Position numbers and translations under genes: made by a program
DNA from: Escherichia coli
GTDB taxonomy: Bacteria; Pseudomonadota; Gammaproteobacteria; Enterobacterales; Enterobacteriaceae
Assembly (NCBI RefSeq): GCF_030013205.1
Contig: NZ_CP122648.1
Direction: 5' to 3' (one strand)
Length of the DNA: 64,000 nucleotides
Shown: one piece after another, positions 59,545 to 60,379 of the stretch
Layout of the letters: every line of letters starts with the position of its first letter
Position numbering within the stretch: the first letter of the stretch is position 1
Notes under the pieces: generated by a model
What the model was told of the DNA's origin: nothing
Seen by the model: only the letters and a program-made list of their open reading frames with translations
Databases searched by the model: none

Positions 59545-59650
59545 AACTCCTGAGCAGGCGGCACTATGCCGCTTTCATAGGAGTTCTGAATGCTGGTGCT
59601 TTCTGTATGGCATAACCATGCCTCTAACGGTTAAGTGCCTGCAGCACATG
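59545..59650. repeat. ~100-bp repeat, copy 1 (imperfect hairpin plus conserved tail); overlaps the 3' end of the antitoxin gene
   Basis: About 85% identical to 61362-61464. Confidence 0.55.
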
Positions 59651-59914
59651 TTGCGGATCATTGGCAATCGCTCGCAGCAAAGCCTTTGCAGGCCCAGTCG
59701 GTGAACGTCGCCCCTGCTCCCAGTTACGCAACGTGTCTACGCTTACGGAAATAAGTTCGGCAAATTTAGATTGTGACAACCCTGAAGCGCGGCGTATTTC
59801 TTTGATTTTCATAGCATCAACTTCAAAAGTCCGTGAAGGGTGTCGCGTTCCTTCAATAATTTCATTCATCTGGGCCATGCTGTGAGTCAACCGCTCAAAA
59901 AGTGCCTTATCCAT
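59624..59914 (-). CDS. HigA-like HTH (XRE-family) antitoxin
   Basis: 96-aa translation with HTH (SQSKFAELISVSVDTLRNWEQGRRSP); directly follows the toxin gene. Confidence 0.75.
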   Translation of the reverse strand: MDKALFERLTHSMAQMNEIIEGTRHPSRTFEVDAMKIKEIRRASGLSQSKFAELISVSVDTLRNWEQGRRSPTGPAKALLRAIANDPQHVLQALNR

Positions 59915-60226
59915 TTACCACCTCGTATTTAACAACCGGAGCATTGCTTTTTCCTGGGGAGACAGATCATCTTTAATACCCTTACGATAAATAAGCAGTA
60001 ATCTGATCTCATAATGTTTAACCTGATGAAAGTAAATAACCCTGACACCAGCACGTTTCCCCTTTCCTCCTGACACCCATCGAACCTTTCTTAACCCACC
60101 AGTTTCAGGTATTACCTCACCATAGTCAGGATTCAAGGCCAGGAAAAACTGAAAACGACTGAATTCATCGTCGGTCAGCAGTTTTTGAACATCTTCAGTA
60201 AAAATTTCCGTTTCGATGAAGAGCAT
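59915..60226 (-). CDS. RelE/ParE-superfamily toxin in HigB-like toxin-first arrangement
   Basis: 103-aa translation typical of small RelE/HigB-like toxins; toxin stop abuts the antitoxin start. Confidence 0.72.
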   Translation of the reverse strand: MLFIETEIFTEDVQKLLTDDEFSRFQFFLALNPDYGEVIPETGGLRKVRWVSGGKGKRAGVRVIYFHQVKHYEIRLLLIYRKGIKDDLSPQEKAMLRLLNTRW

Positions 60227-60347
60227 AATTATACGCCATTGGCTTAGAGTAACAATCCTTTTTGTACGTCATTGACGTACCCTTGAAACCACTAGCTTAC
60301 TGATAGTGCTCCAGCAAAACCACGTCTCTGCCGGGTTTGTCTTTACA

Positions 60348-60368
60348 TTTGCGAGGCGCTTTCCAGAT
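60348..60368. promoter_or_regulatory. third copy of the 21-bp module tttgcgaggcgctttccagat, upstream of the toxin-antitoxin operon
   Basis: 20/21 identity with 58226-58246. Confidence 0.4.
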
Positions 60369-60379
60369 TTTTCACGCCC

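What the first reader, a model, noticed from the sequence alone, without database searches (positions are those of the whole stretch)
59624..60379. HigB/HigA-like toxin-antitoxin operon driven from a region that reuses the yiiF/yiiE upstream motif
A 103-aa RelE/ParE-fold toxin gene is followed, with stop abutting start, by a 96-aa HTH antitoxin gene; this toxin-first order is the HigBA layout. The spacer upstream of the toxin contains tttgcgaggcgctttccagat (60348-60368), a 20/21 match to the element upstream of the ribbon-helix-helix gene at 58226-58246. The toxin-antitoxin operon therefore occupies the slot of a third paralog module and may share its regulation.
Basis: partly seen in the sequence, partly recalled or inferred. 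Interest (0 to 1): 0.5.

Follow-up and report, generated by a model that had tools for sequence, protein, structure and literature searches.

The report
HigBA2-type toxin-antitoxin with conserved upstream element
This is an ordinary, already-annotated HigB2/HigA2-type toxin-antitoxin gene pair of E. coli, but the 21-base motif it shares with yiiF/yiiE is real: it is a conserved element that sits at the boundary of a chromosomal slot where different toxin-antitoxin cassettes are swapped or stacked across enterobacteria.

Summary
A 103-aa toxin ORF (59915-60226, minus strand) ends in TAA directly abutting the ATG of a 96-aa HTH ORF (59624-59914). The 21-mer at 60348-60368 matches 58226-58246 at 20/21, with none expected by chance.

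The pair belongs to the Vibrio cholerae HigBA2 family. The toxin matches solved HigB-2 chains (E 1e-19, 42% identity), and all four mutationally tested active-site residues are conserved. A unique palindrome, GTACG-N7-CGTAC (60264-60280), reproduces the half-site and spacing of the mapped HigA2 operator. The pair occurs in 2636 of 5426 complete E. coli genomes. Its Salmonella orthologue is SehCD.

The motif is not TA-intrinsic. It occurs only at the syntenic fabY-hydrolase...fdhE locus of Enterobacteriaceae, 133-145 nt upstream of higB. In Citrobacter freundii and some Salmonella the same slot instead holds a YiiF-homologue RHH antitoxin plus a PIN toxin. Between cassette types, homology breaks exactly at the motif's 3' edge. 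E. coli yiiF still has PIN remnants downstream, so yiiF and yiiE look like orphan antitoxins.

The motif is most likely a protein-binding regulatory site whose factor is unknown. A sigma-54 reading was tested and rejected. Interest is modest.

The parts
59915..60226 (-). HigB2-type toxin gene (103 aa), a RelE-like ribosome-dependent mRNA endonuclease by homology
   Evidence: ORF. phmmer against PDB matches V. cholerae Toxin HigB-2 chains (9tv9_C, 5ja9_C, 5ja8_A, 8a0x_C, 5mje_A) at E 1.5e-19 to 1.5e-18 over residues 2-99. Ungapped identity is 41/98, and the VcHigB2 active-site residues R51, R64, Y82, K84 correspond to R49, R62, Y80, K82 here (residues from PMC5416850). Pfam PF06296 matches only weakly (E 0.0062). 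Homologues at about 70% identity are annotated 'Toxin HigB-2' or 'RelE/ParE family toxin'.
59624..59914 (-). HigA2-type antitoxin gene (96 aa; RefSeq 'NadS family protein'): N-terminal toxin-binding segment plus C-terminal HTH-XRE domain
   Evidence: NCBIfam NF041265 NadS scores 60.4 bits against a cut-off of 60. Pfam HTH_3 E 1.9e-9 at residues 37-74. PDB Antitoxin HigA-2 (9tv9_A, 5jaa_A, 5j9i_A) E 8e-9 to 4e-8 over residues 5-89. The ATG abuts the toxin stop codon.
60264..60280 (.). Perfect palindrome GTACGTCA-T-TGACGTAC, the inferred HigA2-type operator
   Evidence: Unique in the window, with 0.01 expected. It has the same half-site and spacing (GTACG-N7-CGTAC) as the footprinted and crystallised V. 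cholerae HigA2 operator TGTACGC-N5-GCGTACA (PMC11006873). It is conserved upstream of orthologous and more distant toxins: at about -55 in Enterobacteriaceae and at -21 to -35 in Erwinia, Pantoea and Pseudomonas.
60228..60255 (-). Best sigma-70 consensus match, TTGTTA-16-TATAAT (10/12); probably not the working promoter because its -10 ends 1 nt before the ATG. The alternative is -35-like ATGACG (60267-60272, inside the operator) with -10-like TACTCT (60246-60251)
   Evidence: Consensus scan. The TATAAT is not conserved in Salmonella or Yokenella, whereas TTGACG inside the operator and TACT(C/A)T are (alignment A3). The promoter assignment is an inference; no transcription start data were available.
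60348..60368 (-). Shared conserved element; consensus in gene orientation is TCTGGAAAGCGGCTCGCARAA, 141 nt upstream of the higB ATG
   Evidence: It is conserved as an island within otherwise unalignable intergenic DNA in Salmonella, Citrobacter, Enterobacter, Kluyvera, Leclercia, Lelliottia, Yokenella, Pseudocitrobacter, K. spallanzanii and Siccibacter. It is not coding in any frame. It lies at the breakpoint between the constant flank and the alternative TA cassettes.
59543..59587 (-). Strong hairpin followed by UUUUAC, 37 nt after the higA stop: the likely higBA terminator. It is part of a 98-nt direct repeat (59545-59642 and 61362-61459)
   Evidence: D1, I1, I2; MFE -30.5 kcal/mol, z -3.3. 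The hairpin part is conserved downstream of higA in Pseudocitrobacter and K. spallanzanii.
58226..58246 (-). Copy of the shared element upstream of yiiF (113 nt before the ATG)
58665..58684 (-). Degenerate copy of the shared element upstream of yiiE (TTTGGATGCCGTCTCGCAAA); this copy is near-perfect in K-12
57890..58132 (-). yiiF, an RHH (CopG/VapB-like) orphan antitoxin
   Evidence: RefSeq annotation. It is 71% identical to the C. freundii RHH gene that precedes a PIN toxin.
57748..57873 (-). Remnants of a PIN (VapC-like) toxin gene directly downstream of yiiF: aa 7-27 at 57811-57873 and aa 102-124 at 57748-57801
   Evidence: tblastn with the C. freundii PIN protein gives E 0.006 and 0.084. 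The two pieces are colinear, on the correct strand and in the correct position. The same C-terminal remnant is seen in K-12 and K. spallanzanii.
58351..58569 (-). yiiE, an RHH paralogue of yiiF (38% identity)
60415..60438 (+). Divergent hydrolase promoter core: -10 TATAAA (60415-60420) followed by the LexA-box-like CTGTACATTCATACAG (60423-60438), 17 nt before the hydrolase ATG at 60455
   Evidence: CTGT-N8-ACAG is conserved at this position in E. coli, Salmonella, Enterobacter, Citrobacter, Yokenella, Kluyvera, Leclercia, Pseudocitrobacter and K. spallanzanii. Only 2 such patterns occur in the 64-kb window.

Best explanation
The two ORFs are a HigBA2-type (V. cholerae HigB2/HigA2, Salmonella SehCD) type II toxin-antitoxin operon.

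By homology, the toxin is a RelE-like, ribosome-dependent mRNA endonuclease. The antitoxin would neutralise it through its N-terminal segment and repress the operon by binding, as a dimer through its C-terminal HTH domain, the palindrome GTACG-N7-CGTAC at 60264-60280. That palindrome overlaps the core promoter about 40-55 nt upstream of the ATG. A hairpin at 59543-59587 probably terminates the transcript.

The 21-mer shared with yiiF and yiiE is a separate, roughly 22-bp conserved cis-element, TCTGGAAAGCGGCTCGCARAA. It has two conserved hexamers whose starts are 11 bp apart. It lies about 85 nt upstream of the operator and marks the fixed edge of a chromosomal slot between a LexA-box-bearing alpha/beta-hydrolase gene and fdhE.

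In that slot Enterobacteriaceae carry either a higBA2 cassette, a YiiF-like RHH-PIN (VapBC-like) cassette, or both in tandem, and each cassette is preceded by its own copy of the element. E. coli has the tandem form, with the RHH-PIN part duplicated and decayed to the orphan antitoxin genes yiiE and yiiF.

The most likely role of the element (inferred, not shown) is a binding site for a conserved host protein that modulates whichever TA or RHH promoter lies downstream. The factor is not identified.
For: TA identity:
- PDB HigB-2 hits at E about 1e-19, and HigA-2 hits at about 1e-8.
- All four mutationally tested active-site residues are conserved (with PMC5416850).
- Toxin-first order with TAA abutting ATG.
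- A unique palindrome with the VcHigA2 half-site and spacing, conserved upstream of homologues across Gammaproteobacteria.

Element:
- 20/21 identity with 0 expected by chance.
- It is a conserved island with sharp edges in at least 10 genera while the flanks are unalignable.
- It is retained where the hydrolase and LexA box are deleted (L014, L020, L074, L076), and in K-12-type E. coli that lack both higBA and the hydrolase.
- It is present upstream of RHH genes in K. spallanzanii (29 nt identical to the higB copy in the same genome) and in P. vendiensis.
- It is present 113-118 nt upstream of RHH-PIN pairs occupying the same slot.
- Within Citrobacter and within Salmonella, homology between higBA-type and RHH-PIN-type chromosomes ends within 2 nt of the element's 3' edge and resumes at the fdhE stop.
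- PIN remnants lie downstream of yiiF.
Against: - No experimental data exist for this E. coli pair. The only study of the Salmonella orthologue SehCD is a retracted paper. It reported autorepression by SehD but no growth inhibition by SehC (PMC3868539).
- Two of the four base-contacting residues of VcHigA2 (R68, E71) differ here (alignment), so operator binding is inferred from the DNA side only.
- Pfam PF06296 matches the toxin only weakly, and the AlphaFold model was too poor to confirm the fold.
- For the element, no binding factor, transcription start or phenotype is known, and no known binding-site consensus that I could recall fits it.
- Its position, about -59 to -79 from the inferred hydrolase transcription start, is equally compatible with a role at the divergent promoter.
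- The copy upstream of yiiE in this window is degenerate. That would be unexpected if every copy were under selection.
Confidence: 0.6

Rival explanations
1. First reader's model. The TA operon sits in the slot of a third yiiE/yiiF-type paralogue and is co-regulated with them, with the RHH proteins YiiE/YiiF binding the shared motif.
For: The motif has the same orientation and a similar distance upstream of yiiF, yiiE and higB. RHH proteins do bind short repeats, and the element contains two similar half-sites with an 11-bp period (CTGGAAA and CTCGCAA). In other species the slot does hold a YiiF homologue.
Against: The motif is conserved upstream of higBA in Enterobacter, Yokenella, Kluyvera, Leclercia, Lelliottia, most Salmonella and several Citrobacter species. 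In those loci no yiiE/yiiF homologue was detected. The family is small (244 proteins) and largely confined to Escherichia, Citrobacter, Pseudocitrobacter and some Salmonella. higBA plus hydrolase is the common arrangement, not a replacement. A separate conserved block, AATAACTGCAACTGTTACAT, shared by the yiiE and yiiF upstream regions, is a better candidate RHH operator.
Confidence: 0.12
2. The element belongs to the divergent, LexA-box-bearing hydrolase promoter as an upstream activator or UP-like site centred near -69. The copies upstream of RHH genes are hitch-hiking relics of the recombination events that stacked the cassettes.
For: In single-cassette genomes the element is the last conserved block of the constant hydrolase-side flank: hydrolase ATG, LexA box, -10, -35, then the element. 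Cassette-swap breakpoints lie just beyond it, as expected if everything up to it is needed for the hydrolase. The yiiE copy in this window is decaying.
Against: The element is intact in genomes that lost the hydrolase and its promoter, and there the deletion ends exactly at the element's other edge (L014, L076, L020). It is also near-perfect upstream of yiiF and yiiE in K-12, which has no hydrolase. It is identical over 29 nt between the two copies in K. spallanzanii, although the surrounding DNA is unrelated.
Confidence: 0.15
3. The element is a sigma-54 (-24/-12) promoter, TGG-N9-TCGCA, that drives a long-leader transcript into each cassette.
For: The invariant TGG and GCA have the exact GG-to-GC spacing of sigma-54 promoters, the variable positions fall in the sigma-54 spacer, and the element is compact and points towards the downstream gene. 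glnAp2 and a few ChIP-bound sites also carry TCGC at -12, for example CTGGAACGCTTTTCGCA.
Against: A weight matrix built from the 135 ChIP-bound E. coli sites scores the element at 4.7-5.4 bits. That is below every bound site (minimum 6.7) and below 151 other 17-mers in this window. No sigma-54 ChIP-seq peak was reported at yiiE/yiiF in K-12 in the tables or the held supplements, nor in the RpoN genomic SELEX list. The non-consensus bases (TGGAAA, CTCGCA) are themselves conserved. The GC is lost in Buttiauxella and one E. cloacae. No enhancer-like upstream site is conserved.
Confidence: 0.05
4. The element is a recombination or junction site at which TA cassettes, and the hydrolase gene, are inserted, exchanged or deleted. 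This would make the interval an integron-like cassette slot.
For: Rearrangement breakpoints coincide with both edges of the element: cassette swaps at its 3' edge in two genera, and hydrolase deletions and tandem stacking at its 5' edge. Each stacked cassette is preceded by a direct copy. V. cholerae HigBA2 itself lies in the V. cholerae superintegron (per a title cited from my own recollection; not retrieved here).
Against: No recombinase gene is annotated in the neighbourhood. No copy or half-copy of the element lies at the right-hand (fdhE) junction, which carries only GC-rich terminator hairpins. There is no dyad symmetry or attC/dif-like core (checked by eye against GTTRRRY and Xer arms). 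Ordinary homologous recombination in the conserved flanks, plus selection on a functional site, explains the same pattern. The yiiE/yiiF duplication unit is larger than, and not bounded by, the element (D2 and D10).
Confidence: 0.08

Closest known systems
Vibrio cholerae HigBA2 (VcHigB2/VcHigA2; PDB 5JA8, 5JA9, 5JAA, 5J9I, 8A0W/X)
   Same: Toxin-first operon. The toxin is 42% identical over its full length, with R/R/Y/K active-site residues conserved. The antitoxin has an N-terminal toxin-binding segment and a C-terminal HTH-XRE domain. The operator is an inverted repeat GTACG-N7-CGTAC at the promoter.
   Different: It is chromosomal at a fixed enterobacterial locus rather than in the V. cholerae superintegron. 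Two of the four base-contacting residues of HigA2 differ. The operator arms are 8 bp with a 1-bp centre rather than 7 bp with a 5-bp spacer. There is an extra conserved element about 85 nt upstream. No biochemistry exists for this protein.
Salmonella Typhimurium SehCD (STM4032.2N-STM4033), next to STM4032
   Same: It is the orthologue at the same syntenic locus (fabY ... hydrolase, higB-like, higA-like, fdhE). The Salmonella toxin is 68% identical here, and STM4032.2N was reported as 72% identical to an E. coli 'HigB'. The palindrome and the upstream element are both conserved.
   Different: The only functional study is retracted (PMC3868539). It reported SehD autorepression and no toxicity of SehC. 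Salmonella LT2-type strains additionally carry sehAB beside the hydrolase. Some Salmonella carry RHH-PIN instead of SehCD.
Proteus vulgaris Rts1 HigBA and E. coli K-12 HigBA (YgjN/YgjM); Salmonella SehAB
   Same: Toxin-before-antitoxin gene order, a RelE-superfamily toxin and an HTH antitoxin.
   Different: These are different toxin and antitoxin families. The toxin here gave no significant Pfam hit to HigB_toxin. Those antitoxins are about 140 aa with a different architecture. VcHigB2-type toxins are structurally closer to RelE than to Rts1 HigB (PMC5416850).
VapBC-type RHH-PIN toxin-antitoxin pairs (for the yiiF and yiiE modules)
   Same: YiiF homologues (about 70% identity) are immediately followed by a 124-aa PIN-domain gene in C. 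freundii, Salmonella and P. vendiensis. PIN remnants follow E. coli yiiF.
   Different: In E. coli the toxin gene is destroyed and the RHH gene is duplicated (yiiE, yiiF). These are orphan antitoxin-like regulators, not a TA pair.
Integron gene cassettes and chromosomal TA insertion hot spots
   Same: Alternative or stacked TA cassettes lie in one orientation at one chromosomal position, each preceded by a copy of a short conserved sequence.
   Different: There is no integrase, no attC-like imperfect palindrome or GTTRRRY core, no site at the distal junction, and the cassettes carry their own promoters and operators.

Membership tests
HigBA2 family (V. cholerae HigB2/HigA2 type II TA) | Toxin gene precedes the antitoxin gene in one operon | tested here: met
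   Toxin at 59915-60226, then antitoxin at 59624-59914 on the minus strand, with TAA abutting ATG.
HigBA2 family (V. cholerae HigB2/HigA2 type II TA) | Toxin homologous to HigB2 over its full length | tested here: met
   phmmer against PDB: Toxin HigB-2 at E 1.5e-19, residues 2-99 aligned to 23-120, with 41/98 identical.
HigBA2 family (V. cholerae HigB2/HigA2 type II TA) | RelE-like active-site residues (VcHigB2 R51, R64, Y82, K84) | tested here: met
   R49, R62, Y80 and K82 are aligned and identical (residues defined in PMC5416850). They are also invariant in 11 orthologues.
HigBA2 family (V. cholerae HigB2/HigA2 type II TA) | RelE-type alpha/beta fold of the toxin | tested here: inconclusive
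   The AlphaFold2 model from an 11-sequence alignment had mean pLDDT 53 and pTM 0.45, too poor for a fold search. The fold is inferred only from sequence homology to solved chains.
HigBA2 family (V. cholerae HigB2/HigA2 type II TA) | Antitoxin with an N-terminal neutralising segment and a C-terminal HTH-XRE dimerisation/DNA-binding domain | tested here: met
   HigA-2 chains at E 8e-9 to 4e-8 over residues 5-89. HTH_3 at residues 37-74. Disorder and folding on binding are not testable here.
HigBA2 family (V. cholerae HigB2/HigA2 type II TA) | Single inverted-repeat operator at the promoter (TGTACGC-N5-GCGTACA in V. cholerae) | tested here: met
   GTACGTCATTGACGTAC at 60264-60280 is unique in the window with 0.01 expected. 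It is conserved in orthologues and more distant homologues. Binding itself is not testable with these tools.
HigBA2 family (V. cholerae HigB2/HigA2 type II TA) | Growth inhibition by the toxin, rescue by the antitoxin, and ribosome-dependent mRNA cleavage | not testable with these tools
   The only relevant report, on the Salmonella orthologue SehC, found no strong toxicity, and that paper is retracted.
Pfam PF06296 (RelE toxin, formerly DUF1044) | Significant match to the family HMM | tested here: inconclusive
   i-Evalue 0.0062, 17.2 bits, residues 43-101 only. Several 70%-identical orthologues do carry a precomputed PF06296 hit.
NCBIfam NF041265 NadS family | Score at or above the curated cut-off (60 bits) | tested here: met
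   60.4 bits, E 1.6e-16. RefSeq names the gene nadS.
Rts1/K-12 HigBA family | Toxin of the HigB_toxin type with a roughly 140-aa HigA antitoxin | tested here: not met
   No significant Pfam hit to such a family for the toxin. The antitoxin is 96 aa. The K-12-type pair (SehAB, PF09907) is a separate gene pair in Salmonella loci.
Sigma-54 promoter (for the shared element) | GG and GC dinucleotides separated as in TGGCACG-N4-TTGCA | tested here: met
   TGGAAAG-CGCC-TCGCA has invariant TGG and GCA across genera.
Sigma-54 promoter (for the shared element) | Overall match within the range of sites bound by sigma-54 in vivo, and a ChIP signal | tested here: not met
   The matrix score is 4.7-5.4 bits, against a minimum of 6.7 for the 135 bound sites. 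No peak was reported at yiiE/yiiF in K-12.
Integron attC site (for the shared element and the 98-nt repeat) | Imperfect palindrome with R''/R' cores (RYYYAAC ... GTTRRRY) bounding each cassette, plus an integrase | tested here: not met
   No such cores in the element or the repeat (read). There is no site at the fdhE junction and no integrase among the neighbours.
LexA (SOS) box (for the divergent hydrolase promoter) | CTGT-N8-ACAG overlapping the core promoter | tested here: met
   CTGTACATTCATACAG at 60423-60438 lies 2 nt after the -10 TATAAA. It is conserved in at least 9 genera. LexA binding and SOS induction are not testable here.
VapBC-type RHH-PIN TA (for yiiF) | RHH antitoxin gene immediately followed by a PIN toxin gene | tested here: not met
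   In this window only two PIN fragments remain downstream of yiiF. Intact pairs exist in C. freundii, Salmonella and P. vendiensis. yiiF is therefore an orphan antitoxin homologue, not a TA pair.

The most novel reading that the evidence does not exclude
The roughly 22-bp element TCTGGAAAGCGGCTCGCARAA is a dedicated junction or docking site. It would make the hydrolase-fdhE interval of Enterobacteriaceae an integrase-less, integron-like slot in which unrelated TA cassettes (HigBA2-type and RHH-PIN) are exchanged and stacked, each regenerating a copy of the site. Alternatively, it is the operator of one unidentified host factor that co-ordinates unrelated TA modules with an SOS-controlled esterase.
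Probability: 0.1. Interest if true: 0.7.

Novelty: new member of a known kind. Interest (0 to 1): 0.3.

Why it matters
The TA pair adds little. It is annotated in RefSeq, present in about half of complete E. coli genomes, and belongs to a structurally characterised family.

The context has some value. A short non-coding element is conserved across at least 10 genera at the exact boundary where two unrelated TA cassette types replace or join each other. Copies of it also sit upstream of the poorly understood K-12 genes yiiE and yiiF.

This gives a concrete reading of yiiE/yiiF as orphan VapB-like antitoxins. It also offers a testable case of either a host-encoded input into TA transcription beyond autoregulation, or a preferred junction for TA cassette turnover. 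The conserved LexA-type box on the neighbouring esterase gene suggests an undescribed SOS-regulon member in non-K-12 enterobacteria.

Tried and rejected
1. Sigma-54 promoter reading of the element. A weight matrix from 135 published ChIP-bound sites placed it below all bound sites. No ChIP or SELEX signal was reported at yiiE/yiiF. Rejected as the main explanation.

2. Small ORF or leader peptide across the element. Stop codons are scattered in all three frames across species. Rejected.

3. Known RNA family. An Rfam gathering-threshold scan of the whole window found nothing in 57-62 kb.

4. Element as an intrinsic part of HigBA2 cassettes. It is absent (at least 7 mismatches) upstream of non-syntenic homologues in Xenorhabdus, Photorhabdus, Legionella, Pseudomonas, Pantoea and Erwinia. 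Rejected.

5. Element in phages. There were 48 pattern hits in viral contigs. I roughly estimate this to be about the chance level (no computed expectation). They lie in unrelated contexts, with none next to TA or RHH genes.

6. Literature search for the element's sequence returned no paper. Searches for yiiE/yiiF regulation returned nothing useful. The E. coli dRNA-seq TSS paper is not held.

7. Structure prediction of the toxin gave pLDDT 53, which is unusable, so no fold search was run.

8. PADLOC gave no defence-system assignment for the toxin, and only generic HTH hits for the antitoxin.

9. Recombination-site idea. No element copy lies at the fdhE junction. The attC, dif and Ter consensus sequences were compared by eye from memory and do not fit.

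10. Known transcription-factor consensus sequences recalled from memory (PurR, FadR, IclR, Cra, PhoB, MarA/SoxS, Ada, Fis, IHF, CRP and others) gave no convincing match. These comparisons are leads only, not tests.
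Full report
**Locus.** The window around the finding is the E. coli fdoGHI-fdhE / yiiF / yiiE ... fabY (yiiD) region. Positions 57700-61600 are 100% identical to E. coli ETEC1748. The order in the window is:
- fdhE (+)
- yiiF (57890-58132, -)
- yiiE (58351-58569, -)
- two hypothetical ORFs (58988-59266 and 59318-59539, -)
- the antitoxin (59624-59914, -) and the toxin (59915-60226, -)
- a divergent alpha/beta-hydrolase (60455-61363, +)
- a 617-aa ORF (-), then fabY

K-12 has a deletion of window positions about 59024-63281, so it lacks the TA pair and the hydrolase.

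**Observation check.** Both ORFs exist as described. The toxin stop TAA is immediately followed by the antitoxin ATG, with a GAGG Shine-Dalgarno sequence inside the toxin 3' end. The 21-mer at 60348-60368 matches 58226-58246 at 20/21, and no match at up to 3 mismatches occurred in 100 shuffles. The similarity extends to 24/27, and a degenerate third copy lies upstream of yiiE.

**What the gene pair is.**
- The toxin matches solved V. cholerae HigB-2 chains at E 1.5e-19 over residues 2-99. Identity is 41/98.
- The four residues whose alanine substitution lowers VcHigB2 activity 170- to 3000-fold (R51, R64, Y82, K84; PMC5416850) are all conserved here. They are also invariant in orthologues.
- The antitoxin matches HigA-2 chains at E about 1e-8 over residues 5-89. 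It has an HTH_3 domain at residues 37-74 and just reaches the NCBIfam NadS cut-off.
- Pfam sees the toxin only weakly (PF06296, E 0.006), and NCBIfam and PADLOC do not see it at all. This explains why RefSeq often calls it 'hypothetical'.
- An AlphaFold model from a shallow alignment was too poor to use.

The pair is therefore a HigBA2-type module, not a member of the Rts1 or K-12 HigBA family. It is single-copy in 2636 of 5426 complete E. coli genomes. Homologues at about 70% identity, often annotated 'Toxin HigB-2', occur in Enterobacter, Cronobacter, Salmonella, Citrobacter and other genera. The Salmonella orthologue is SehCD (STM4032.2N-STM4033). The only functional paper on it is retracted; it reported autorepression by SehD and no strong toxicity of SehC.

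**Its own control region.** A perfect palindrome GTACGTCA-T-TGACGTAC lies at 60264-60280. It is unique in the window, with 0.01 expected. Its half-site and spacing (GTACG-N7-CGTAC) equal those of the V. cholerae HigA2 operator TGTACGC-N5-GCGTACA, which was footprinted and crystallised with HigA2 (PMC11006873).

The palindrome is conserved upstream of the orthologues, about 55 nt before the ATG. It is also conserved upstream of more distant homologues in Erwinia, Pantoea, Tatumella and Pseudomonas, at 21-35 nt.

The best sigma-70 consensus match (TTGTTA-16-TATAAT) ends 1 nt before the ATG and is not conserved in Salmonella or Yokenella. I therefore favour a promoter whose -35 lies in the right arm of the operator (TTGACG in most species), with a -10-like TACT(C/A)T. 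This is an inference. A strong hairpin followed by UUUUAC lies 37 nt downstream of higA and is a likely terminator. It is conserved in Pseudocitrobacter and K. spallanzanii.

**The shared motif: distribution.** I fetched the toxin's relatives from one genome per species and scanned 400 nt upstream of each.
- The element, consensus TCTGGAAAGCGGCTCGCARAA, is found only where the pair sits in the syntenic fabY...fdhE locus of Enterobacteriaceae. These are Salmonella, Citrobacter, Enterobacter, Kluyvera, Leclercia, Lelliottia, Yokenella, Pseudocitrobacter, K. spallanzanii and Siccibacter. It is degenerate in Buttiauxella and Cedecea.
- It always lies 133-145 nt upstream of higB.
- It is a sharp island of conservation in otherwise unalignable DNA. 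The conserved hexamers TGGAAA and CTCGCA start 11 bp apart.
- It is absent from non-syntenic copies of the TA family and is not coding in any frame.
- Most of these genera have no yiiE/yiiF in the locus.

The higBA pair and the hydrolase are thus the usual residents, and the element is a property of the locus rather than of the TA family.

**The slot.** YiiF has a small homologue family of 244 proteins. In C. freundii, some Salmonella and a Serratia-labelled contig, the YiiF homologue is directly followed by a 124-aa PIN-domain gene. This RHH-PIN pair occupies exactly the position of higBA, between the hydrolase and fdhE.

Its upstream region has the same hydrolase start, LexA-type box, -10 and -35 blocks. 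The element then follows, 113-118 nt before the RHH start.

Within Citrobacter and within Salmonella, chromosomes of the two types are homologous up to within 2 nt of the element's 3' edge and again from the fdhE stop. The roughly 750 nt in between are unrelated.

P. vendiensis and K. spallanzanii carry higBA followed by an RHH module, each module with its own copy of the element; the PIN gene is intact in the former and a remnant in the latter. In K. spallanzanii the two copies are identical over 29 nt although the flanks are unrelated.

In this window two colinear PIN fragments follow yiiF. E. coli therefore has the stacked form, with the VapBC-like part duplicated and decayed. yiiF and yiiE are orphan antitoxin homologues.

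**What the element does.** The following points argue against a mere relic and against a role limited to the hydrolase promoter:
- it is conserved across genera;
- it is retained in genomes that lost the hydrolase and its promoter, with the deletion ending at the element's 5' edge (L014, L076, L020);
- it is retained in K-12, which lost both higBA and the hydrolase.

A sigma-54 reading was attractive because of the GG/GC spacing. However, the element scores below all 135 ChIP-bound E. coli sites in a matrix built from them, and no sigma-54 peak was reported at yiiE/yiiF.

A recombination-site reading would explain breakpoints at both edges. It lacks a recombinase, any symmetry, and any copy at the distal junction.

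I conclude, at moderate confidence, that the element is a protein-binding regulatory site for an unidentified conserved host factor acting on the downstream TA or RHH promoter. YiiE/YiiF are unlikely to be that factor, because most genera that keep the element lack them.

**Verdict.** It needs correction on three points: the family, the direction of the evolutionary inference, and the idea that the operon is driven from the motif. The TA pair is ordinary. The conserved boundary element and the cassette polymorphism are a modest, testable curiosity.

Noticed in passing
window 60415-60438 (hydrolase CDS 60455-61363, +): A LexA-box-like CTGTACATTCATACAG lies 2 nt after a TATAAA -10 and 17 nt before the alpha/beta-hydrolase (hormone-sensitive-lipase-like esterase) start. 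The box is conserved at this position in at least 9 genera although the surrounding DNA is diverged. This suggests an SOS-regulated esterase that K-12 lacks (the STM4032 orthologue).
   Followed up: partly
window 57748-57873 (-): Two colinear fragments of a PIN (VapC-like) toxin gene lie directly downstream of yiiF. Intact RHH-PIN pairs occupy this locus in C. freundii, Salmonella and P. vendiensis. yiiF and yiiE therefore look like orphan VapB-type antitoxins.
   Followed up: yes
window 59545-59642 and 61362-61459: A 98-nt direct repeat (88% identity) brackets higBA plus the hydrolase. Each copy begins with a long hairpin, 19-bp perfect arms in the second copy. The repeat is specific to this locus (1-2 copies per genome, in 3369 of 5426 E. 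coli genomes). The first copy doubles as the likely higBA terminator, and its right arm carries the AGGAG of the 73-aa ORF at 59318-59539.
   Followed up: partly
window 58606-58622 (-): TCGGCGTAATTTTCGCA, 37-53 nt upstream of the yiiE start, scores 12.7 bits in the sigma-54 matrix, which is within the range of ChIP-bound sites. No sigma-54 peak is reported there in K-12. The known intragenic fdoI site CTGGCGCGAATTCTGCA (published ID IS47) is at window 56300.
   Followed up: partly
window 58988-59266 and 59318-59539 (-): Two small hypothetical ORFs (92 and 73 aa) lie between higA and yiiE and have no family hits. Both have homologues in the same position in K. spallanzanii. In P. vendiensis a 70-aa ORF occupies the position of the 73-aa ORF but gave no significant similarity. 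The 73-aa ORF has a predicted hydrophobic stretch.
   Followed up: no
window 61532-63385 (-): A 617-aa ORF has no NCBIfam or PADLOC hit. RefSeq annotates the corresponding DNA of ETEC1748 as a 'transposase' CDS plus a partial pseudogene. K-12 retains only its N-terminal fragment as a pseudogene at the deletion junction.
   Followed up: no
window 58249-58268 and 58688-58707 (-): The block AATAACTGCAACTGTTACAT is shared by the yiiF and yiiE upstream regions and lies immediately upstream of the shared element. It contains a CAGTT-N-CAGTT direct repeat and is a candidate RHH operator.
   Followed up: no
window 60371-60384: The palindrome TTCACG-NN-CGTGAA lies directly next to the shared element. 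It is specific to E. coli and not conserved in other genera.
   Followed up: partly
window 52767-52825, 33649-33726, 10237-10278: Rfam hits at gathering threshold: SECIS_3 (at 52767-52825; gene assignment not checked), naRNA4 (CssrE) and ES036 (CssrF).
   Followed up: no
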